Below are positions 43,401 through 54,100 of a stretch of DNA of 64,000 nucleotides, piece by piece (within the stretch, counting starts at the first letter, position 1; each line of letters begins with the position of its first letter). The stretch is from Lama guanicoe (taxonomy: Eukaryota). The stretch spans positions 24,734 to 88,733 of the forward strand of contig MU053164.1 in NCBI GenBank assembly GCA_013239625.1. The letters run 5' to 3'. A program made the position numbers and the translations under genes. The notes beneath the pieces are model-generated. The model worked only from the letters and a program-made list of their open reading frames with translations. It was not told the origin of the DNA and did no database searches.

Positions 43401-46400
43401 GTGGAGCAGAGTGTAAGCTCTCAGGATGAAACTGGGTATCTTTGTGGCTGAGGCTTGAAAGGTTCTCACCCAGAGACAGAATACACAAAATAAATGAATA
43501 ACACCCCTGAGTCTTACTCTCCCCCTCTGTAAGACAGTCCTCGCTCCGCACGTACCGTATAAGCTGACACTCCTGCATCTCTGAACTGTGTTTCTGTCTG
43601 CATAGTTCCCCATGAAAAGTGAAGAAAGGTTGCCCTGTCTACAAGTTTTCCACAAAATGTCTTGATTAAAGAGCACTTTTGTCTGTCTTTAGGCTATTAG
43701 ACCAGCTCCCAAGAGCCAACGTTATTCTGCTAAAGCATCTTTTTGGGTTATTGCACAAGATTGAACAACACAATTCATCGAATCAGATGAATGCATTTAA
43801 CTTAGCGGTGTGCATCGCTCCAAGCGTCCTTTGGCCTCCTGCTTCCTCCAGCCCTGAACTAGAAAGTGAATTTACAAAAAAGGTAATGAAGTTTTTCATT
43901 TTTCTGCCCTGGGGGACTGAGTCCCCATTTTGAACCTAAAGTCTGGGGTATTAATTCTGAAAGACATGTTCTTAAGTACATCTTCTTATAAGTCTGAGTT
44001 CATCGACAGTTCTGTCCTCTCCTGGTAGACTGCAGAAAGGTGATTTCTTAAGTAAAGAAAGTGACAGTAATTGGGTTACTTCTGTTTTCCCTTTAAGGGG
44101 GCAAACAGCTATGACTGACTGAAACCATAGAGGAATAAGAGCAGATGATAAGATTTTAAAAAGAAACAAAATACTTTGAAATTAAACAGGTGCAGGTGGA
44201 AATCTCAGCCCTCCCCACTTGCCAGATGTACAATCTAGGGCAGAATTAGTTACACTGATCCACAGTTTCCTCACCTAACACAGTGGAGGTGGGGATGGTA
44301 CCTCGCTCAGTCAGTACTTACTTGAAATCACACTCCTGCAGTACCTGGTGGTTAGTACAGGGACGGGGTACTGATTCCTCTTCCTCCCAATGTTCTGCCT
44401 GTTCCTTTGCCTCAGCTATTGGGGCAAGAAGACTATGGAAATGTTCCAGTTTATCTCAGTGGAGGCACAGCTCTCCCCAGTGAGCTCTTCTCCAAGCATC
44501 TCCAGTTCTGGCTCCTCAGGGAGGGAAGTGCATGGGAAGAGGCTGGTCAGGCAAAATGTATGCTTTTCTCTCCAGCTGTCTCTCTCCTTCACAGTAAATC
44601 CACAGAGGATGCCCACCTCCCACACTTACGACACCTGCCTTTTACATAAGAAACATATTTTATAAGTCTTTATCTAATGATGCTTCATGAATTTTAATAA
44701 GAAAGTATATTTCTTCATCCCAAATGCCCTGTACAGAGAATACTTAAAATTACCCTAATTTGAAAGACAGGACCGTTAGTATAAAAATGTTAGCATTAAG
44801 CCAAGGCCACAAATAATAACTTTAAGCCACTGGTTAAAATCAATTTCTATACTCAAACCACTCTTGAAAGTATCATGTTTTTTTTAGGGGAAACAGTTCT
44901 GTTTAGTTTTCAAGGAGAAAAGAACTTTGAATTTCTCTCAGGATTCTTTCACTTTTTTTTTTTTTCGGTTTGAACCAGGATTCATACAGGAAGTGTGATT
45001 TATAGGTGCGCTATGTGAAAAGTAGCCCTTCATTTTTGCTCCTTTTTTGTACAGGTTTCTCTGCTTATACAATTTCTGATTGAAAACTGCTGTAGAATAT
45101 TTGGAGAAGAAATCACTTCCCTTCTGGAAGAGGTTTCAGTGACATGTGATACAAAAGAGAATGCCTCAGGTACTGTGAATAATGGGGTTGTTTTTGTGTG
45201 TGAGAAATAGCCACACACGTGAAGGTCAGCGAGGGCACCGGTTACCCTCAGCCCAGAGCAGCTCGGGCGAAGGGGCCTCTCGCCTGGGTCAGGGGCNNNN
45301 NNNNNNNNNNNNNNNNNNNNNNNNAGGTTCCCAAAAGACATTGTTAGTGGCAGAATTTTAACTTTTTTTTTTAAATAAACCTTACAAGGATATACAGTAG
45401 AACAATTAACAGACTTACAATATAATATATTGTTATAACATATTATATTGNNNNNNNNNNNNNNNNNNNNNNNNNNNNNNNNNNNNNNNNNNNNNNNNNN
45501 NNNNNNNNNNNNNNNNNNNNNNNNNNNNNNNNNNNNNNNNNNNNNNNNNNNNNNNNNNNNNNNNNNNNNNNNNNNNNNNNNNNNNNNNNNNNNNNNNNNN
45601 NNNNNNNNNNNNNNNNNNNNNNNNNNNNNNNNNNNNNNNNNNNNNNNNNNNNNNNNNNNNNNNNNNNNNNNAAACAGCTAGCGGGGCAGGGCAGGGTGTG
45701 TGGGGCTTGAAGACATTCAGCCTTCCAGAATATGAATGCCTGCACCACCAATTCTTGGTTATCTTTGAACAATTATTCTGTGCCACCATAACATAAGTAT
45801 CTTCTCCTCTCCTGTNNNNNNNNNNNNNNNNNNNNNNNNNNNNNNNNNNNNNNNNNNNNNNNNNNNNNNNNNNNNNNNNNNNNNNNNNNNNNNNNNNNNN
45901 NNNNNNNNNNNNNNNNNNNNNNNNNNNNNNNNNNNNNNNNNNNNNNNNNNNNNNNNNNNNNNNNNNNNNNNNNNNNNNNNNNNNNNNNNNNNNNNNNNNN
46001 NNNNNNNNNNNNNNNNNNNNNNNNNNNNNNNNNNNNNNNNNNNNNNNNNNNNNNNNNNNNNNNNNNNNNNNNNNNNNNNNNNNNNNNNNNNNNNNNNNNN
46101 NNNNNNNNNNNNNNNNNNNNNNNNNNNNNNNNNNNNNNNNNNNNNNNNNNNNNNNNNNNNNNNNNNNNNNNNNNNNNNNNNNNNNNNNNNNNNNNNNNNN
46201 NNNNNNNNGTTTTTTTTAAGGCAGCATGTATTTGAGGCAAGTGCAAATGTTAATCATGGTTTGATTTTTTTGGCAGATATCTCCTGCTTCCAGCTGAATG
46301 ACTCCTCCTATGACAGCCTGGAAAGTGAGCTGAATGAAGAAGTCGATGCTCCATGCAGTGACTTAGTAAAGAAACTCAGTCCAGGCAGCAGAAGCATGGA

Positions 46401-47880
46401 CTCCGTGTTAACCCACATTGACTCTGACCTCGAGCAGCCTGAGGCAGAAGGCGTTTTAACCTTGAGTGAGTTTGACTTAGACCATCCTAAAGATGAAGAT
46501 GTCCATGTGGAACAGCCCGGTGAGCCCGCGCCAGTGGCCATGGCAGCAGTGCACAGAAAGGCCTCACTGCAGGACCAGGCCAGTGCCCCCTCTGACACAA
46601 GCACCCCCAGCTACCTGTCCGCAGCTACAGAAGATGCTCCAAAAACCCCGATGCAACAGCGACACTGCTCGGAGCCCAGCATCGGCTACCTGGGTTCAAA
46701 GCTTTCCTTTCTTATGGCGTTTTATCAGAAAAGGATACGCAGGTCCAGCTATGATGCGATTCTCCTGAAAAAAGATGAGAACCATCTGAGTCAGAATCCA
46801 CCCCTCCAGGAAGAGGGTAAGACAGGTTTTAAAACGAGTTTAGTCACAGATACTGATGTCAAGAAAAATGCCACTGATAAAAATCATAAGGAGAAAAGCT
46901 TTTGTGATAGCGAAGGAAATCATGTAAAGCTTTTTCCTAAATCCAAGCCAGGGACCATTTCTTACAGCCGCCTGTCCTCACACGATCGTCCCAGGAACCA
47001 GCCCTTCACTGCGGACATGGCTGGGTACTCCCCACCACGCACAGCAGAGCCCTTCAAGGGCTCAAGGAGGCAGCGGCGCTGCTCAGAGCCCAGCACTGAT
47101 GACCAGCACTGCAAACTGACCTATCTCAGGGGACTTTATTCAAAAAAGCAGCAGCACAACGCGAGCTGTGACACCAGTCTCTTGCCCGGAGAGGAGGATA
47201 ATCTCAAGAGGCACAAGTCTTTGCAGATGGAGGGGCAAAAGCTTATCAGTCAGAGCTTGGTCATGGGGATCGAGGTTGGCAAGAGTGGTGCCGCAAACCA
47301 GAACACTGAGAAGGTCTTCCCCTCAACATTAAACATTTGCCCGAGGAGTAGCTGTTCCAGCTTGTCCTCCCCGGACACGTCCCCATCTGGCTCGCCAGTG
47401 AGCTCCCAAGACAGCGCTTTTCCTCAGATTTCTGAACAGTCGGTGTTTACACCCACTGAAACATCCTCTCCAGTAGATTGCACTTTTCAAGCTCAAGGAA
47501 AACAGGAAGAGCTTTCTTCTGACTTTAGCAGTTCCAGCCTCATTTCTGGAATTCCCAGTCCCTCATCAGGGCAGGCCAGCAGCCACCTGGCTCATACAAA
47601 AAAGGACAGCCTAGAGGGGCATACACAAATGCGTTCTATAACTCTTCACCCCAGCACATGGTTGAGAAATGGTATAGCCAGTTTGAAAAATTGGTCCCTC
47701 AAAAAGAAGGCAAGGGTACCGAGACCAGAAAACAATAAAACAGGTTCTCTAAAAGGACCCATGGAGCCACCTCCATTTGCTTCTGGCATTCCAGAAGCCA
47801 GCACACTGCAAGAGAGACAGACAGACATTCCCCAAAGGGCAACTGAAGGACTTGGAGCTGTGCAAACAGCCCAGTGCTGA
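7270..47880 (+). CDS. ARHGAP20: Rho GTPase-activating protein 20 (PH-RA-RhoGAP); 5'-partial spliced CDS, 13 exons in the window, C-terminus shortened by 81 aa
   Basis: Exons 7270-7431, 14383-14529, 21401-21442, 22344-22428, 25298-25375, 27534-27600, 30493-30681, 37664-37839, 39219-39380, 40945-41054, 43693-43882, 45055-45169, 46277-47880. All are AG/GT bounded and phase-compatible, joining into one open frame (3127 nt) collinear with recalled human ARHGAP20. Orthologue versus paralogue cannot be settled from this window. Confidence 0.93.
8612..9130 (-). mobile_element. MaLR (MLT1-type) solo LTR
   Basis: caacaaattatcccaaaac, gtggcttagctgg..ctggctcagaggctctcatgaggttgcagtc, ttttggaggccgggtaccaca. 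Confidence 0.7.
9605..12610 (+). mobile_element. L1 5' portion: 5' UTR, degenerate ORF1 and start of ORF2 endonuclease; 3'-truncated
   Basis: L1 5' start motif (gagctcacctacccccagg..ctacatgtggagcaattctcact), A-rich ORF1 relic, and the peptide [16 protein letters not shown]...[14 protein letters not shown] (12181-12420). Confidence 0.88.
11616..11708 (+). mobile_element. 93-bp 5'-truncated L1 3' end nested in the older L1
   Basis: tgtgctgtacaccagaaattgacacattgtaactgactgtacttcaa L1 terminus, flanked by 14-bp TSD GAAGTAACAAGTTA (11602-11615 and 11709-11722). Confidence 0.85.
14383..14529 (+). CDS. ARHGAP20: ARHGAP20 exon (PH domain), [20 protein letters not shown]...[11 protein letters not shown]
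   Basis: ctttctag|A acceptor, AG|gtgaga donor; strong peptide match. Confidence 0.93.
15790..16280 (+). mobile_element. L1MC-like 3' end fragment
   Basis: ctcaaaactgtcaaggtca, gagacatgataactaaatgcaatgtggtatcttggatggatcctagaacagaaaaaaggacatta, poly-A tail. Confidence 0.7.
16290..19430 (+). mobile_element. Old L1 5'/ORF1 fragment split by the TPST2 retrocopy (16290-17020 and 19163-19430)
   Basis: atgttggaattaccataaaagaacttta|aagcagctcttatgactatgctc is continuous across the insertion and resembles L1M ORF1. Confidence 0.6.
17021..19150 (+). pseudogene. TPST2: Processed pseudogene of tyrosylprotein sulfotransferase 2
   Basis: Intronless MRLSVRR...[12 protein letters not shown]...[10 protein letters not shown] (17680-18645). 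Premature TAA at 18175-18177, a 56-codon in-frame deletion, and the native stop changed to CGA. A-rich tail about 19140-19150; 12-bp TSD AAAAGAACTTTA at 17009-17020 and 19151-19162. Confidence 0.96.
21401..21442 (+). CDS. ARHGAP20: ARHGAP20 42-nt exon, [14 protein letters not shown]
   Basis: ttcattgcag|T acceptor, AG|gtattt donor; matches human [14 protein letters not shown]. Confidence 0.9.
22344..22428 (+). CDS. ARHGAP20: ARHGAP20 exon, [28 protein letters not shown]
   Basis: gattag|A acceptor, TGT|gtaagt donor; peptide match. Confidence 0.92.
25298..25375 (+). CDS. ARHGAP20: ARHGAP20 exon (RA domain), [26 protein letters not shown]
   Basis: Long polypyrimidine tract with cctacag|T acceptor, ACT|gtaagt donor. 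Confidence 0.92.
27534..27600 (+). CDS. ARHGAP20: ARHGAP20 exon (RA domain), [23 protein letters not shown]
   Basis: ctccaag|G acceptor, G|gtaagt donor; matches human [15 protein letters not shown]. Confidence 0.92.
28616..29132 (-). mobile_element. Young 5'-truncated L1 (3' end)
   Basis: Poly-T start, L1 3' UTR/ORF2-end motifs (gcatccatgttgctgcaaatggcatta, gagtagtattccattgt), and 14-bp TSD CCAGTTTATTTCTT (28602-28615 and 29133-29146). Confidence 0.92.
30493..30681 (+). CDS. ARHGAP20: ARHGAP20 exon (end of RA domain), [14 protein letters not shown]...[18 protein letters not shown]
   Basis: gtgtag|GA acceptor, G|gtgagt donor; peptide match. Confidence 0.93.
32302..33070 (-). mobile_element. 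hAT (Charlie1-like) DNA transposon fragment with transposase C-terminal relic
   Basis: Minus-strand peptide [26 protein letters not shown] (hAT dimerisation motif); end resembles the Charlie1/MER58 terminus (cagggctc..actttttctgtaaagggccagg). Confidence 0.8.
33080..34608 (-). mobile_element. Rearranged L1 fragments: ORF2 3' part (-), inverted ORF2 piece (+, about 33820-34025) and an L1 5' end (-)
   Basis: ataaatacccagcagtggaattgctg and gcagaagctttttagtttgatgta (minus); tttatatggaatcacaaaagacctagaattgcc (plus); ggaggtgagttcagggtctccctatgtcaccatcttg is the reverse complement of an L1 5' start. Confidence 0.75.
37215..37330. repeat. Polypyrimidine (CCT/CT-rich) low-complexity tract
   Basis: Directly visible C/T-rich run including cctcctcctcctcctc. 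Confidence 0.85.
37664..37839 (+). CDS. ARHGAP20: ARHGAP20 exon, [21 protein letters not shown]...[12 protein letters not shown]
   Basis: ccttag|AT acceptor, TTG|gtaagt donor; peptide match. Confidence 0.93.
39039..39057. repeat. (AC)n microsatellite
   Basis: Directly visible dinucleotide run. Confidence 0.85.
39219..39380 (+). CDS. ARHGAP20: ARHGAP20 exon (RhoGAP domain with intact arginine finger GIFR, AGA at 39270-39272)
   Basis: ccccatag|G acceptor, AAG|gtggga donor; [22 protein letters not shown]...VIASVLK. Confidence 0.95.
40945..41054 (+). CDS. ARHGAP20: ARHGAP20 exon (RhoGAP), [19 protein letters not shown]...EEKINAVQR
   Basis: gtaag|GAT acceptor, AG|gtaatt donor; K-DFLR RhoGAP motif across the junction. 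Confidence 0.93.
42552..43191 (-). mobile_element. ERV1-class solo LTR (640 bp)
   Basis: TG...CA termini (TGATAC...GTCTCA), 4-bp TSD GTTG at 42548-42551 and 43192-43195, and ERV1 LTR-like motif gggaaagaattcaagagcaagcc. Confidence 0.85.
43693..43882 (+). CDS. ARHGAP20: ARHGAP20 exon (RhoGAP), LLDQLPRAN...[19 protein letters not shown]...EFTKK
   Basis: ctttag|G acceptor, AAG|gtaatg donor; RhoGAP NxMxxxNLAxxxxP motif. Confidence 0.95.
45055..45169 (+). CDS. ARHGAP20: ARHGAP20 exon (end of RhoGAP), [24 protein letters not shown]...ENAS
   Basis: ttttgtacag|G acceptor, G|gtactg donor. Confidence 0.93.
46277..47880 (+). CDS. ARHGAP20: ARHGAP20 terminal coding exon (Ser-rich tail), ending early at ...VQTAQC-TGA
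   Basis: ttggcag|AT acceptor; lies within ORF 46261-47880; matches human [16 protein letters not shown]...[16 protein letters not shown]. Confidence 0.93.
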
Positions 47881-48633
47881 TGCTGAGGACACGCATTCAA
47901 CCAAAGACATTTAACCACAATCAGAATCTAATATCTGCAAGGACAGAAACCGGGCTAATAACATAAAGATAATAATTATTATGACCCCTGTGTATAGAAT
48001 AACCAAGACAGGTAGCATCAAGGTTATCACTGCTGATACTTAGGACAAAAAAAGAATCCTCTTTATTGAGACTATTTGGCAAAAAGTTGAGACTAAAAGA
48101 TTTTATCACCTGTTTGGGAGGACAGACATTCCCCAAAGGGCAGCTGAAGGACTTGGAGCTGTGCAAACAGCCCAGTGCTGCAGTCCTTACCCCAGCCAGG
48201 ACTCGGAGAAGGATGGTAGCTCTCCATCCAGCCTGGCGGGAGATGGACTTGAGCTTTGTATGAAGTCCCCTGAGGAAGGAGAGAAGGATGAGCAGTGTTC
48301 TGGTACTCTGCCTCTAGAAGGATCCTCACCCAGCTCTTTGACAGTGGATGACATGTCCAGCCCAGACTCAGGGCCAACAGTGGTTTCTGATGCTGAGGAC
48401 ACGCATGTAACCAAAGACATTTAACCACAATCAGAATCTAATATTTGCAAGGACAGAAACCGGGCTACTAATAACATAAAGATAATAATTACTATGACCC
48501 CTGTGTATAGAATAACCGAGACAGGTAGCATCGGGGTTATCACTGCTGATACTTAGGACAAAAAAAGAATCCTCTTTATTGAGACTATTTGGCAAAAAGT
48601 TGAGACTAAAAGATTTTATCACCTGTTTGGGAG
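47820..48633 (+). repeat. Tandem duplication of the ARHGAP20 stop-codon region (copy 1 47820-48120, copy 2 48121-48633)
   Basis: Both copies start gacagacattccccaaagggc and end atcacctgtttgggag. Copy 1 lacks the segment equivalent to 48181-48389; the copies also differ by 8 substitutions and a 3-nt indel. Confidence 0.95.
48179..48424 (+). pseudogene. ARHGAP20: Stranded ancestral ARHGAP20 C-terminal coding segment (CSPYPSQDSEK...DAEDTHVTKDI-stop), now downstream of the stop codon
   Basis: ORF 48161-48424 aligns to the recalled human C-terminus CSSSPFQDSE...SPDSGPTVVCDIEDRYLTKDI. Confidence 0.85.
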
Positions 48634-49458
48634 GCTTTTCCTTATTAGAGCATGGATTGATCCTGTCATGCATTTTAAGAGATCCGAGCAGAGGGCTAAA
48701 GAAGCATCATCTTCTCTAGAGGAAACATGCCTTAGATGACACTAAGAAGGCAAGGATATCAAAAGTGAAGAATAAAAACCATGGACAGAGTGGGAAGTCT
48801 GCAAAGAAACCATCCGCATTCCATGAAATGTTTTTAATAAGTAAGCAAGAAAAATACCACCAATCAAAGCATTAAGAAGGAAAGCATGTCAGATGATCAA
48901 GGAAATCACGTCAGACTTTTCCCTGAAACCAAGCGAGTGGCCAGTTCTGAGACATCTCATAGTCAATCACGTGCCCTCACAGAATCATTCCAGGTACCAG
49001 CCCATTAAGGCAGCTAGAGTGGAAAAAACTCGAGGGATTCGAGCCACAAGTACCAAGACATCATAGTTTTTGTTGGTCAATTTGTTTTTCCATGGGTGTT
49101 TCACTGCTCTACAGAGGCCCCCGGACATAGCTATGGGGAGAAAGAAGGAAATGGGTGCTCATTTCAGTGTTCTTTCCGGAGATGCCTGAGCCAGGAACAT
49201 TCTCCAGAAGTGCACTTTTCCCTCCTAGGAGGTGCCCTCCTGACAGCATTCGCTGTCTGGGTGAGGAGGAAGAGTCTGCAACAACAGTCATTCCTGTGTT
49301 ACATGGTCATCGTTGCCAACAGGTGATCAAAGCAGGACCCCACTTTGCGGAAATGTTTTTCTGCAGCCTTGTCTCTAGGATTAATCAGCCAAAAAAAATT
49401 GCTGATAAATTCTCCCTTTTCCGATGACCAATTCACAGCTAAGAGAGCAGTTTATAGA

Positions 49459-50034
49459 GCTGGCAGGTTATAAAGAGTCACAGAAAAGAAGAGCCACCAC
49501 AGTGGCACTCAGGCCTTCTTTCAGACAGTCCTCGACACTGGATTTTCTCACCTCCAGAACTTTTTACATCTTTTTCTCCCAAAATGATTCATGGTCTATA
49601 CCCCACTGGAATAAACCAATGGGGTATACACCACGGTGCGTGCCCCACTGGAACACACCAGTGGGGTATACACCATGGTGCGTGCCCCACTGGAATACAC
49701 CAAAGTGGTATACACCGAATGGGGTATAAACCATGGTGTATACCACATTGGTTTATTCCAGTGGAGCACACACAGTGGTGTAGACCCCATTGGTTTATTC
49801 CAGTGGGGCACACACCGTGGTGTTTACCCCATTGGTGTATTCCAGTGGGGCACACACCGTGGTGTTTACCCCATTGGTGTATTCCAGTGGGGTATAGACC
49901 ATGAATCATTTTGGGACAAAAAGATGTAAAAACTTCTGGAGGTGAGAAAATCCAGCATCGAATACTGTCTGAAAGAAGGCCTGACAGCCACTGTGGTGGC
50001 TCTTCTGTTCTGTGATTCTTTACAACCTGCCAGC
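49459..50034. repeat. 576-bp palindrome (inverted duplication) with an internal 42-bp minisatellite
   Basis: 49459-49600 is the reverse complement of 49893-50034 (11 mismatches in 142 bp, no indels). Repeat units start at 49601, 49643, 49685; inverted units end at 49892, 49850, 49808, 49766. Confidence 0.95.
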
Positions 50035-51104
50035 CCCTCTCTCTGAAAGGTTACACCTCTCCTGGATTACCTCCATTTATGATTGGGCCTTGCCAGACAG
50101 TACCATGTGACAATCAGGGATGGCTGTGCACCTTCCTTCATTTTAAACACTTACTTATTAGTAATTGCTTAGAACCCATTTGACCTCTTTAATTCAAATT
50201 CCAATAGCCCTTTCTCCCACAAACTTGTTTATTTCAAATCACCTTTCTTAGCCACCCAGAAACTTTCATGCCATATATGCGTCCCCTGTTGTCCTAAAGA
50301 TTGTATTTTTTGTTATAAAAAAAATATTTTTTCTGTAAACTAGAAGAAGTCCTTTCAGTATTAGCTTAGGTGCTACCTACCTCTCGGGGACATGGCCCTT
50401 TTTGTCCTAAGCAGTATAATAAGCCGTTAGAATTCTGTGTCCAAAGAGCTCCTTTATGACACTGGCCATCCTAGTCACAGATGTGAAGTAGATTTCACCT
50501 TATCACCAACCACTCCTATATTGAGACTCCTCCAAGTATCCCTATGCATCTCACGTGATATGATAGATGAGAGCAGCAGGGTTCCCCTCACCTTGTGGGC
50601 CCACTACTGTCAGAACTGCAATGTGTGAATGAAGCTCTATTGCTTGGAGCGTCTTTTCCAGAAACAAACTTCTTCTCTACTTAACAAAATAATAGTTCTA
50701 GCCATGTTTTGTTTTTCTTTTGTATTGGCGGGAGAAAATCATACGCCCAGTTTGAAGCAGAGAAAAGAATAGATACGCTTCTTTAATAACCATTTCTACT
50801 CTGTGTTCCCTTAGACACTCCTTACATATTTAATGTGAATACTTAATATTGCTTTAAAGTATTATATTGTATGATTTGAAGACAGACTACATGTCATTTT
50901 ATTACACTCTTGTCAGTCTATAAAATATTAGACTGATGCTTTATGTAAGATGCTTTTGAGTTTGTATAATATATCTTGACAAATTTTACTACCTTATGTT
51001 ATGTAAGAAATGTGTATTTTTGTACTTGCAGAAACTGCTAACTTTTAAAGTTGTTTGATTTTTCAAGGCACTGATAATAGATATGTATGAAGTCCATGCT
51101 ATAT

Positions 51105-51110
51105 ATTAAA
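51105..51110 (+). promoter_or_regulatory. Candidate ARHGAP20 polyadenylation signal (ATTAAA)
   Basis: ATTAAA at the end of an AU-rich, UTR-like tract with TG-rich sequence downstream. Alternative AATAAA hexamers occur at 48771 and 49610. Confidence 0.35.
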
Positions 51111-54100
51111 TGAAACACCATTCTTCAAAAGTTAACAATCCCACCAGAGTTATTACTCTGCCCTTTGTGTAACTGTTTTAGCTAATAAGCTCAATTTCTG
51201 CTTAACGTTGGGAATTTCATAAAATGTAATTAATGCTGAATTGGAACTTTGAACTTNNNNNNNNNNNNNNNNNNNNNNNNNNNNNNNNNNNNNNNNNNNN
51301 NNNNNNNNNNNNNNNNNNNNNNNNNNNNNNNNNNNNNNNNNNNNNNNNNNNNNNNNNNNNNNNNNNNNNNNNNNNNNNNNNNNNNNNNNNNNNNNNNNNN
51401 NNNNNNNNNNNNNNNNNNNNNNNNNNNNNNNNNNNNNNNNNNNNNNNNNNNNNNNNNNNNNNNNNNNNNNNNNNNNNNNNNNNNNNNNNNNNNNNNNNNN
51501 NNNNNNNNNNNNNNNNNNNNNNNNNNNNNNNNNNNNNNNNNNNNNNNNNNNNNNNNNNNNNNNNNNNNNNNNNNNNNNNNNNNNNNNNNNNNNNNNNNNN
51601 NNNNNNNNNNNNNNNNNNNNNNNNNNNNNNNNNNNNNNNNNNNNNNNNNNNNNNNNNNNNNNNNNNNNNNNNNNNNNNNNNNNNNNNNNNNNNNNNNNNN
51701 NNNNNNNNNNNNNNNNNNNNNNNNNNNNNNNNNNNNNNNNNNNNNNNNNNNNNNNNNNNNNNNNNNNNNNNNNNNNNNNNNNNNNNNNNNNNNNNNNNNN
51801 NNNNNNNNNNNNNNNNNNNNNNNNNNNNNNNNNNNNNNNNNNNNNNNNNNNNNNNNNNNNNNNNNNNNNNNNNNNNNNNNNNNNNNNNNNNNNNNNNNNN
51901 NNNNNNNNNNNNNNNNNNNNNNNNNNNNNNNNNNNNNNNNNNNNNNNNNNNNNNNNNNNNNNNNNNNNNNNNNNNNNNNNNNNNNNNNNNNNNNNNNNNN
52001 NNNNNNNNNNNNNNNNNNNNNNNNNNNNNNNNNNNNNNNNNNNNNAAAAAAAATCTATTCTGGTTATGAGGATATCTCATAAGCTAACTTTCCTGCTGAA
52101 AGGAAGAGTACTCTTGAGTTCTGGGTTTTCTACACCAAGCATGAGTCTCCCTTATTTCTGAGCCATTTCTTGGTATAAATCCTTTGTGTGTGTGTGTGTA
52201 TGTTCATGTGTGTGTTTAAGTAAACTCCTTAAGCTTCAGTTCTGCATGATGTCAGTGTGTGATAGAATTTGTAGAAGGCTCTAGGGTGTGATTTGGAAAA
52301 TTTTGTTTCCGAATCCTCAAAAAATATACACAGGATGGTATTAGATATATATTGTTACTTAATTTGTACAGCATGTGTGCTCATTGTGTAGTGCCAGAGT
52401 GCACATACGTACGTAGGAAGATAGTTCAAAGTGCTTCTCTAATATATTTTAATTTGTTAAGGCAAAGTAAATACGTTTTCTGGAGTTTGGCCTTATATGA
52501 CAATGTGAGATGCAGGTTTGGGAGATGTTGAGGTTTAAATGCTAGTTGTTTTATCTAGGTTTGATTTTTAGATTACAGCAACTTGGAATTCAGTTTAGAA
52601 CTCCTCACAGCCTCTTGATCTGCTGTGAGGAGTGAATAAATTAGCTAAAAACCTATACTTGTGAGGCAGGCCCATTACTTTGAGCAAGTAAAATAGATAT
52701 TTTAAAGAAATACTCCATCTTTCCCAGGTCACAGAGATGGTGATTATTACAGCCTAAAATTTTTAGAGGGAAAGGAAACATTCTATCTTTGCCCCAAGAA
52801 TGAGATGACTAAGAAGCAGAGAATCTTCAAAATACATGAACACAGAGAAGCTTACTGCTTGAAGGCACAGCAAATGAATAGAGGGGGAGGAAAGCCAGAG
52901 ATGAGCTAATTCAAGCAATAAATTGAATCACAAGGAGTTTAGAGAAAATTGAGAAAAGGGAAAGAGTGTGGCCAGAGGGAGATAGAAGTGTTACAAATGA
53001 TATAAATGCTAGTCAGACAGTGTAATTTTTATTGCCAGGTACTGTTCTAGACCCTAGGATACAAGGTAAAAAAGGATAGCTTGTTTCTGTCCTCAAGTAC
53101 TTTAAAATAACTTGGGAAAATTAGGCTGCAGAGAAGAAGGGGAGCAGTGAACACCCACTGGGCACTTAACTGTTGCCTCCATGCACTGGTGATCTGCACA
53201 TTGTTTTATTTCATTTAATGTTCACTATATCCTATGTGGTGGGTACCTTCAGAACCTCACTCTGACTCCAGGCTCTTTTTTTCACCCTTTCATCTTAAAA
53301 TAGTTTCCATAATAAAGCAGACACAAGGCGTGTACATGAGGACCTATCCAAACCTTACTAATTTATTGTGTCTCAGTTAAATATCTCTAAGAAAATCCCC
53401 TCTCCCCTCCAAGTGTCTTCCAACAGGGACACCTGCCGATGCCACACAAGCACTCAGAGCTGTGGCAGTGGACAGAGCAGCAATTGGAACTGTAAGAGGG
53501 GGACAAGCAAACAGAGCCCCCCTCAGCTGGGCTGGGTCTGAGGGATGCTCTGACCTATGGCTCTACCTATCCTGGCGTCCAACACAGGCCAGAGGTGATA
53601 GACAAAGTCAGAGGAGCTGATTTCAGTCAAGGCAGCTCTCTGCACCCTGTCGCACTAGATCAACCAGTGGTTGGTCTGGTGTCATGTAGACAAAACAACT
53701 ATTTGATGAGTGAGTCTTTCACTTCCCACAGCTCAAGTCAGCATGAGTCTAGGGTGGTGCCTGCCAAGTAGTGGGCAAATTGTGGCCCCAAACATGTTGC
53801 TGTTTGCCATGCTGGAGGCGGCCCCACATTCCCACTGCCCTCAGAGGGGTTTGGTTTGGAGCTGGGGGCAACAGAAGGAAGCTAAGACTGGGAAACTGAC
53901 AACTAGGATGGGGCTAACCTGAAAAGGTCTCAGGGGTTTCCCAAGTTTAGTTACCCTCTTGTCCAGAGTGGGGTTGGCAGAGACCTTGGCCTCACCCCAG
54001 CGTGTGCCTGTGTGTGCCTGACCAGGCTGTAACAAAGGCTTTCTCGGAATCTGAGGTTAAGAAAGATGAAGGGCAGGGGCCGCCTGTCTGTCTGCAATGG

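What the first reader, a model, noticed from the sequence alone, without database searches (positions are those of the whole stretch)
49459..50034. 576-bp palindrome in the probable ARHGAP20 3' UTR: a built-in long dsRNA hairpin
Seen: the outer arms (49459-49600 and 49893-50034) are reverse complements with 11 mismatches in 142 bp and no indels. Pairing continues in the same register through three 42-bp repeat units, giving a potential stem of about 250 bp. Six of the mismatches form three tandem doublets. I do not recognise the arms as a SINE pair or a known MITE, and I see no TSD. Inference: if the UTR extends to the ATTAAA at 51105, the mRNA carries a long hairpin. Long dsRNA stems are established substrates for ADAR editing, Staufen binding, Dicer/endo-siRNA production and MDA5/PKR sensing. 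In DNA the element could extrude a cruciform. About 8% arm divergence with a preserved register argues for a real, old structure rather than an assembly fold-back.
Basis: partly seen in the sequence, partly recalled or inferred. Interest (0 to 1): 0.8.

Follow-up and report, generated by a model that had tools for sequence, protein, structure and literature searches.

The report
Long DNA palindrome behind camelid ARHGAP20-like gene
A real 576-base near-palindrome with a minisatellite core lies about 1.6 kb behind the stop codon of a camelid ARHGAP20-like gene copy; it would fold into a long double-stranded RNA if transcribed, but its origin and transcription could not be tested here.

Summary
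Arms 49459-49716 and 49777-50034 are 258 nt long and 91% complementary, with no indels and a 60-nt centre. The outer 142 nt are unique and the inner parts are inverted arrays of a 42-bp unit. As RNA it folds at -468.7 kcal/mol (z = -40). The helix persists inside a 3.25-kb candidate UTR (228 of 258 positions).

The gene is an ARHGAP20 family member. Its nearest relatives are camelid "ARHGAP20-like" paralogues (94% alpaca, 91% wild camel; all other mammals 75% or less), so it is probably not the canonical gene. Its reading frame ends early at a 301-bp local rearrangement, and an alpaca gene model ends at the same point.

Origin is unresolved. I found no target-site duplication above chance and no second copy in the window. 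No genome or repeat library was available. I favour a local inverted duplication seeded by the hairpin-prone minisatellite (0.45) over a foldback or MITE-type transposon (0.35).

Arm differences show no bias toward keeping the + strand RNA paired (3 G:U against 7 A:C). Interest is modest.

The parts
49459..49600 (+). Left unique arm (142 nt)
   Evidence: reverse complement of 49893-50034 with 11 mismatches and no indels; GC 0.44.
49601..49716 (+). Left array of the 42-bp unit (2.8 copies). Each unit holds its own 9-bp inverted repeat. Arm-specific variants are ...GGTATACACC... and ...GGTGCGTG.
   Evidence: TRF period 42, 89% matches; unit listing.
49717..49776 (.). Centre of the palindrome (60 nt), made of degenerate units. 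Alternative registers pair here (I2, I3).
49777..49892 (+). Right array in register with the left one. The whole right array is 49730-49892 (3.9 copies, inverted orientation). Arm-specific variants are ...GGTAAACACC... and ...GGTGTGTG (read as reverse complement).
49893..50034 (+). Right unique arm (142 nt)
45769..47880 (+). Last coding exon of the ARHGAP20-like gene (partly masked by N). The frame ends at TGA 47878-47880.
47880..48180 (+). 301-bp local rearrangement. It consists of a copy of the end of the CDS plus the start of the 3' UTR (47877-48121, matching 48387-48634), followed by a second copy of 47820-47879 (48121-48180). It creates the early stop.
   Evidence: alpaca model P0078 has the same protein end.
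48122..48424 (+). Ancestral-looking C-terminal coding segment, now out of reach of the frame (stop 48422-48424).
   Evidence: it aligns with the C-termini of P0079-P0082, Bos and Kogia.
48771..48776 (+). AATAAA upstream of the palindrome. If it is used, neither arm is in the mRNA.
49610..49615 (+). AATAAA inside the first unit of the left array. If it is used, only the left arm is transcribed.
51105..51110 (+). ATTAAA 1,071 nt after the palindrome. If it is used, both arms are in the 3' UTR.

Best explanation
This is a real, lineage-restricted DNA palindrome: a long inverted repeat with a minisatellite core. It lies in the 3' region of a fast-evolving, C-terminally truncated camelid ARHGAP20-like paralogue.

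Most likely origin (inferred): a local inverted duplication. A hairpin-prone 42-bp minisatellite, in which each unit carries its own 9-bp inverted repeat, stalled replication or folded back at a break. Synthesis then copied the array and 142 nt of adjoining unique sequence in reverse, in a fold-back or template-switch event. Afterwards each arm's array was homogenised or expanded on its own.

It is probably a neutral structural by-product. It acts as RNA only in transcripts that read past the AATAAA at 48771 and 49610. In those it would form a stem of about 258 bp, 91% paired, with a longest perfect run of 37 bp. From general knowledge of inverted-repeat SINE pairs in 3' UTRs, such a stem would be a substrate for ADAR editing and dsRNA-binding proteins.

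Shown: the structure, its stability, the gene context, and the absence of a TSD. Inferred: the origin, any transcription, and any RNA effect.
For: Structure.

No TSD: I scanned 61 x 61 boundary pairs at lengths 2-12. The only result was one asymmetric AGGTTATA/AGGTTACA pair (7 of 8). My own arithmetic expects about 1.4 such hits by chance. Symmetric boundaries show only dinucleotide matches.

Local rearrangements close by:
- A 301-bp duplication-insertion sits 1.3 kb upstream. The alpaca model P0078 ends at the same point.
- A degenerate copy of a coding-exon fragment lies at 48844-48972.
- The gene belongs to a family duplicated in camelids.

Units are self-complementary and pair in several registers (I2-I10).

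Arm-specific variants recur at the same unit positions: T against A and C against T. The arrays therefore evolved in place after the arms diverged.

The arm differences are transversion-rich. There are 10 transitions against 13 transversions (P = 0.019 if 2/3 transitions are expected, 0.081 if 0.6). They include 3 tandem doublets among 11 mismatches (P about 0.03). That fits error-prone synthesis or patchy repair better than plain neutral drift.

The fold-back mechanism is documented in PMC3907307 and PMC7467729 (search listing and abstract starts only).
Against: Copy number in the host genome could not be measured, because no genome is held. A 64-kb window is too small to exclude a dispersed family.

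Long terminal inverted repeats with internal tandem sub-repeats are the hallmark of foldback transposons.

No empty site, orthologue or paralogue DNA could be compared, so it is not shown that one arm pre-existed.

The statistical oddities of the mismatches are mild (P 0.02-0.08) and rest on 23 sites, some of them repeated unit variants.
Confidence: 0.45

Rival explanations
1. It is a non-autonomous DNA transposon of the foldback or MITE type. The element would be made almost entirely of two long terminal inverted repeats (unique ends plus internal tandem sub-repeats), inserted behind the gene, and one copy of a dispersed family.
For: The architecture matches foldback-like elements. There are long inverted arms, and their inner parts are tandem repeats. 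The size (576 bp) and lack of coding capacity fit a MITE. The palindrome has sharp ends with unrelated flanks. Comparators with 'long internally-repetitive TIRs' are Galileo and Tetris (PMC3573991, PMC4079207; abstracts seen).
Against: No TSD above chance at any boundary within +/-30 nt. No second copy or fragment in the 64-kb window. The translated arm has no relative among predicted proteins: one search gave 7 candidates and none scored; all 10 hits fall on the repeat part, at 23-49% identity. From recall, DNA transposons are thought to be long inactive in most placental mammals, while the arms differ by only 8-9%. None of this excludes a family, because the host genome and a repeat library were not available.
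Confidence: 0.35
2. Whatever its origin, it is a selected RNA element. It would be a built-in long hairpin in the 3' UTR, kept to recruit ADAR, Staufen or Dicer or to control export and stability of the mRNA.
For: The stem is very stable and dominates the fold of a 3.25-kb candidate UTR. The only + strand hexamer after the palindrome within the unmasked stretch is ATTAAA at 51105. Inverted-repeat elements in 3' UTRs are known ADAR1 and MDA5 substrates (PMC13251931, PMC8922249; abstract starts seen).
Against: Mismatches show no excess of wobble-compatible changes on the + strand: 3 G:U against 7 A:C. The minus strand would keep more pairs. 13 of 23 differences are transversions that break pairing on both strands. 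Two AATAAA lie before or inside the left arm. The host gene copy is truncated and diverging fast. No Rfam family matches: the best is mir-559 at 36 bits against a gathering score of 95, and all 14 matches are sub-threshold miRNA hairpins.
Confidence: 0.1
3. It is an assembly artefact: a fold-back chimera of a long read or a mis-join.
For: Palindromic chimeras do occur in long-read data. I could not lay independent reads on the locus.
Against: The arms differ by 23 substitutions and no indel, the opposite of long-read error. Arm-specific variants are repeated consistently across units. The two arrays differ by about one unit. The element lies in the interior of a contig with ordinary flanks.
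Confidence: 0.05

Closest known systems
Foldback-type DNA transposons (Drosophila FB, Galileo, Tetris)
   Same: They have long inverted arms whose inner parts are tandem sub-repeats and whose outer ends are unique, little or no sequence between the arms, and no coding capacity in short copies (comparators from abstracts).
   Different: No target-site duplication. No evidence of other copies. To my recollection these families are described in insects and other non-mammals, not in placental mammals. No sequence homology could be tested.
Fold-back / template-switch inverted duplications (PMC3907307, PMC7467729)
   Same: Inverted duplication with a short spacer, seeded by short inverted repeats or hairpins. 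Here the 42-bp units supply such hairpins.
   Different: The described cases are large (kilobases to megabases), recent, disease- or yeast-assay-associated, and usually terminal. This one is 258 bp per arm, interstitial and old (8-9% arm divergence).
Inverted-repeat SINE pairs (IR-Alu) in 3' UTRs
   Same: If transcribed, an intramolecular dsRNA of about 250-300 bp in a 3' UTR. This is the known class of ADAR1 substrates and potential MDA5 ligands (abstracts).
   Different: It is not made of two independently inserted SINEs. The arms are adjacent (60-nt loop), better paired (91%) and single-origin. Transcription is not shown.
Palindromic AT-rich repeats (PATRRs) of human 11q23/22q11 (recalled, no call)
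   Same: Non-transposon genomic palindromes of several hundred bp that can extrude cruciforms.
   Different: PATRRs are AT-rich and nearly perfect with almost no spacer. This element has GC 0.48, 9% mismatches and a 60-nt centre.

Membership tests
MITE / non-autonomous class II transposon | Terminal inverted repeats | tested here: met
   258-nt arms, 91% complementary. This is trivially met by any palindrome.
MITE / non-autonomous class II transposon | Target-site duplication flanking the element | tested here: not met
   scanning 61 x 61 boundaries at lengths 2-12 gave only one asymmetric 7-of-8 match, at chance level. Symmetric boundaries show only dinucleotides.
MITE / non-autonomous class II transposon | Many dispersed copies in the genome | not testable with these tools
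   No genome is held. There were 0 further copies in the 64-kb window. Prokaryote, viral and metagenome scans gave 0, 0 and 0 matches, plus one chance 20-mer hit; these are uninformative for a mammal.
MITE / non-autonomous class II transposon | Termini homologous to a known transposase-encoding family | not testable with these tools
   No Dfam/Repbase library is available. The termini (GCTGGCAGGTTATAAAG...) match no terminus I can recall, but recall is not a test.
Foldback elements | Long TIRs built of internal tandem sub-repeats with unique outer ends | tested here: met
Foldback elements | TSD and multiple genomic copies | tested here: inconclusive
   The TSD was not found. Copy number is not testable.
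3' UTR inverted-repeat dsRNA (IR-SINE-like) | Both arms lie in one mature transcript | not testable with these tools
Hexamers at 48771 and 49610 could end the mRNA earlier.
3' UTR inverted-repeat dsRNA (IR-SINE-like) | Stable long intramolecular helix in the context of the UTR | tested here: met
   (228 of 258 left-arm positions pair in register within 47881-51130).
miRNA precursor / curated RNA family | Match at or above the Rfam gathering score | tested here: not met
   14 matches with E up to 1, all miRNA families. The best is 36 bits against a gathering score of 95.
PATRR-type palindrome | AT-rich, nearly perfect palindrome without spacer | tested here: not met
   GC 0.48, 23 mismatches in 258, 60-nt centre. 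The definition of the family is recalled.
ARHGAP20 (canonical orthologue) | Closest to the ARHGAP20 orthologues rather than to lineage-specific paralogues; full C-terminus | tested here: not met
   the best hits are 'ARHGAP20-like' of Vicugna pacos (94%) and Camelus ferus (91%). The model named ARHGAP20 in C. ferus is at 88%; the frame ends about 82 aa early, as in alpaca P0078.

The most novel reading that the evidence does not exclude
The element is one copy of a foldback-type DNA transposon family that was mobile in camelids within roughly the last 20-35 million years. This rough age assumes the arms started identical, no conversion, and recalled neutral rates of 1.2-2.2e-9 per site per year. 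That would be a class of element, and a period of DNA-transposon activity, not expected in placental mammals outside a few lineages. It would also have placed a ready-made 258-bp dsRNA module in the 3' region of an expanding ARHGAP20-like gene family.
Probability: 0.1. Interest if true: 0.6.

Novelty: new member of a known kind. Interest (0 to 1): 0.3.

Why it matters
Long, closely spaced palindromes are rare and unstable in mammalian genomes. One that has survived long enough to collect 8-9% arm divergence is a natural test case for two questions: how such structures arise (fold-back synthesis against transposition), and how they are tolerated.

If read-through transcripts exist, it would be a cleaner dsRNA source than the usual inverted SINE pairs, because it has a single origin, a 60-nt loop and 91% pairing. 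It also sits in an animal whose genome here shows almost no young SINEs. That could make it useful for studying ADAR editing or dsRNA sensing in camelids.

As it stands it is one locus in a truncated, fast-evolving paralogue with no evidence of expression or selection, so the practical weight is small.

Tried and rejected
- Whole-genome copy count: no genome is held for this window.
- Read evidence: the look-up of sequencing runs listed 24 runs. 14 DNA-like runs under five coded organism labels hold 0.42-0.52 of the sampled words of 46209-51256. Six RNA or RNA-guessed runs hold 0.07-0.16. These small shares were never laid, and could come from paralogues or from the coding exon.
- Collection scans for other copies with five short patterns from the element:
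  - Metagenome contigs gave 0 matches and 1 match. That match, L001, is a bare 20-mer with no extension.
  - Genome contigs gave 0 and 0.
  - Viral contigs gave 0.
  - These collections are microbial, so the blanks carry almost no weight.
- Protein route to other copies: the 148-aa frame across the palindrome found nothing. The 152-aa minus-strand frame found 10 weak hits, all on the repeat part. The four I read are unrelated tandem-repeat peptides.
- Rfam gave only sub-threshold miRNA-like hairpin noise.
- Earlier findings of this scan: nothing by sequence or place. Word searches gave nothing or only prokaryotic items.
- Literature on ARHGAP20 in camelids: searches 'ARHGAP20'+'camel' (3 papers) and 'ARHGAP20'+'alpaca' (1 paper) returned only off-topic listings.
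- An extension of the palindrome into the AGAGAG/CTCTCT flanks was considered and rejected as low-complexity chance pairing.
- A TA-flanked inner element (49473-50020) nested in a short palindromic target was considered and rejected, because the 12-nt complementary flanks are better explained as part of the arms.

Full report
**1. The observation**

The sequence at 49459-50034 is a near-palindrome. The repeat finder gives arms 49459-49716 and 49777-50034. They are 258 nt long, 91% complementary and ungapped, with 60 nt between them.

The three tandem doublets sit at 49507-8, 49530-1 and 49536-7.

TRF finds a 42-bp unit at 2.8 copies on the left (49601-49716) and 3.9 copies on the right (49730-49892). 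The arrays are therefore unequal by about one unit, and the centre is made of degenerate units.

Each unit holds its own short inverted repeat (CCCCAYTGG ... CCARTGGGG). This is why many alternative registers pair (I2-I10). The register does not continue beyond 49459/50034.

| Fold | MFE (kcal/mol) | Shuffles | z | Shuffles as good |
|---|---|---|---|---|
| RNA | -468.7 | -177.4 +/- 7.2 | -40.5 | 0 of 100 |
| DNA | -279.4 | -77.7 +/- 4.7 | -42.7 | 0 of 100 |

Inside a 3,250-nt candidate UTR (47881-51130), 228 of the 258 left-arm positions still pair in the palindrome register. The longest perfect run is 37 bp, at 49577-49613.

**2. Is it an artefact?**

Probably not.
- The arms differ by substitutions only.
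- The same unit positions carry arm-specific variants in every unit: left GGTATACACC and GGTGCGTG, right GGTAAACACC and GGTGTGTG.
- The two arrays differ in unit number.

This is what a real sequence that has evolved in place looks like, not what a read fold-back looks like. I could not add independent read evidence.

**3. Gene context**

The ORF 45769-47880 belongs to the ARHGAP20 family. Named ARHGAP20 proteins of many mammals, birds and reptiles match it.

| Hit | Identity |
|---|---|
| 'ARHGAP20-like', Vicugna pacos (P0078) | 94% |
| 'ARHGAP20-like', Camelus ferus (P0079) | 91% |
| model named ARHGAP20, C. ferus (P0080) | 88% |
| two further alpaca 'like' proteins, seen on contigs of other lengths (P0081, P0082) | 85-86% |
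| every non-camelid mammal | 75% or less |

So the window comes from a camelid, and the gene is one of several paralogues, probably not the canonical one. Its exons run from about 7.2 kb to 48.4 kb of the window.

The frame ends at TGA 47878-47880. A 301-bp rearrangement has placed a copy of the end of the CDS and the start of the 3' UTR, followed by a second copy of 47820-47879, in front of the last roughly 82 codons.

The alpaca model P0078 ends at exactly the same residues (...AVQTAQC). P0079-P0082, Bos and Kogia continue through the segment still readable at 48122-48421. The truncation is therefore real and shared.

The palindrome begins 1,579 nt after the working stop and 1,035 nt after the ancestral one. 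On the + strand, the only AATAAA/ATTAAA in the unmasked part of 47801-52100 are at 48771, 49610 (inside the left array) and 51105. A masked run starts at 51257. Whether the mRNA reaches 51105 is unknown.

**4. What is it? Transposon or local event**

I scanned every pair of boundaries within about 30 nt of the ends for direct repeats of 2-12 nt.
- The only result is an asymmetric AGGTTATA/AGGTTACA pair. By my arithmetic that is about what chance gives over 3,721 boundary pairs.
- At symmetric boundaries only dinucleotides match.

No other copy or fragment exists in the 64 kb. The window has almost no interspersed repeats at all: 12 non-self HSPs, all of them local duplications.

The host genome is not held and no repeat library was available. 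The scans I could run are microbial or viral collections and were blank, apart from one chance 20-mer.

As a proxy I translated the open frame across the element and searched the large protein collections, which include gene calls on assemblies of public runs.
- Nothing matched the unique arm.
- In one search, all 10 hits fall on the repeat part, at 23-49% identity.
- The four I read are unrelated tandem-repeat peptides.

These blanks are weak evidence.

The architecture is that of foldback elements such as Galileo and Tetris: unique ends and internally repetitive long inverted arms (abstracts). Three things argue against a transposon. There is no TSD. The event is young relative to the presumed extinction of DNA transposons in most placentals (recalled). 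And the surroundings show other small local duplications: the 301-bp event and a degenerate exon-fragment copy at 48844-48972.

A hairpin-prone minisatellite is a plausible seed for a fold-back or template-switch inverted duplication. This mechanism is documented in PMC3907307 and PMC7467729 (abstract starts only).

The mismatch spectrum is mildly odd for plain drift.
- There are 10 transitions against 13 transversions: P = 0.019 against 2:1, and 0.081 against 0.6.
- There are three doublets among 11 mismatches: P about 0.03.

That would fit error-prone synthesis at formation or patchy repair. The numbers are small, however, and some array sites are the same variant counted in several units.

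I put the local inverted duplication at 0.45, the transposon at 0.35 and the artefact at 0.05.

**5. Does it work as RNA?**

The structure would certainly form if both arms were in one transcript. From general knowledge of inverted SINE pairs in 3' UTRs, and from abstracts on ADAR1 and MDA5 substrates (PMC13251931, PMC8922249), such a stem would be edited and bound by dsRNA-binding proteins.

Nothing here shows selection for it.
- Among the 10 transition differences, only 3 leave a G:U pair on the + strand. Seven leave A:C, and the minus strand would keep those seven (P = 0.17).
- 13 differences are transversions that break the pair on either strand.
- No curated RNA family matches. The best is 36 bits against a gathering score of 95.

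I give a selected RNA function 0.1.

**6. Age (inference)**

The unique arms differ at 11 of 142 sites (7.7%). Assume the arms began identical, no conversion occurred, and recalled mammalian neutral rates of 1.2-2.2e-9 per site per year apply. The event is then roughly 20-35 million years old. That is near or before the split of the two living camelid tribes (date recalled), so orthologous loci in both tribes and in the paralogues are the places to look.

**7. Verdict**

This is a real and unusually long, closely spaced palindrome of unresolved origin, behind a truncated camelid ARHGAP20-like paralogue. Its RNA reading is possible but untested and has no support from the substitution pattern. 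Its gene label needs the qualifier 'like'.

This is a new member of a known kind: long inverted repeats and palindromes with a minisatellite core. Interest is 0.3.

Noticed in passing
window 47820-48634: A 301-bp local duplication-insertion in the last coding exon creates a TGA at 47878-47880 and cuts off about 82 C-terminal residues. Those residues are still readable at 48122-48421. The alpaca model P0078 ends at the same residue, so the truncation is shared and is not an error of this assembly.
   Followed up: yes
window 7200-48424 (gene), proteins P0078-P0082: Camelids carry several ARHGAP20-like paralogues. There are three distinct alpaca proteins seen on contigs of different lengths and two Camelus ferus proteins, at 85-94% identity to this exon, while all other mammals are at 75% or less. 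Colugo and Miniopterus also list 'ARHGAP20-like' proteins. Two literature searches found no paper on this.
   Followed up: partly
window 48844-48972: A degenerate copy of a fragment of the last coding exon lies in the 3' region. It reads ...KKNTTNQSIKKESMSDDQGNHVRLFPETK..., against coding ...[29 protein letters not shown].... The tblastn identity is 47-52% to camel and cattle proteins.
   Followed up: partly
whole window: Self-comparison of the 64 kb gives only 12 non-self HSPs at E up to 1e-3, all of them local duplications or the palindrome. There are therefore no young interspersed SINE or LINE families here, which is unusual for a placental mammal. Six runs of N (2,598 bases) are masked and could hide some.
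   Followed up: no
window 49458-49904 (+) and 49589-50050 (-): All three frames stay open through the 42-bp arrays, and mirror-image ORFs of 148 and 153 aa cross the palindrome on the two strands. They match only unrelated tandem-repeat peptides and are best read as by-products of the repeat.
   Followed up: yes
window 49610-49615 and right-arm units: The AATAAA at 49610 exists because of an arm-specific A (against C on the other arm). The same AATAAA-bearing unit variant occurs in two right-arm units, but those are read on the minus strand.
   Followed up: no
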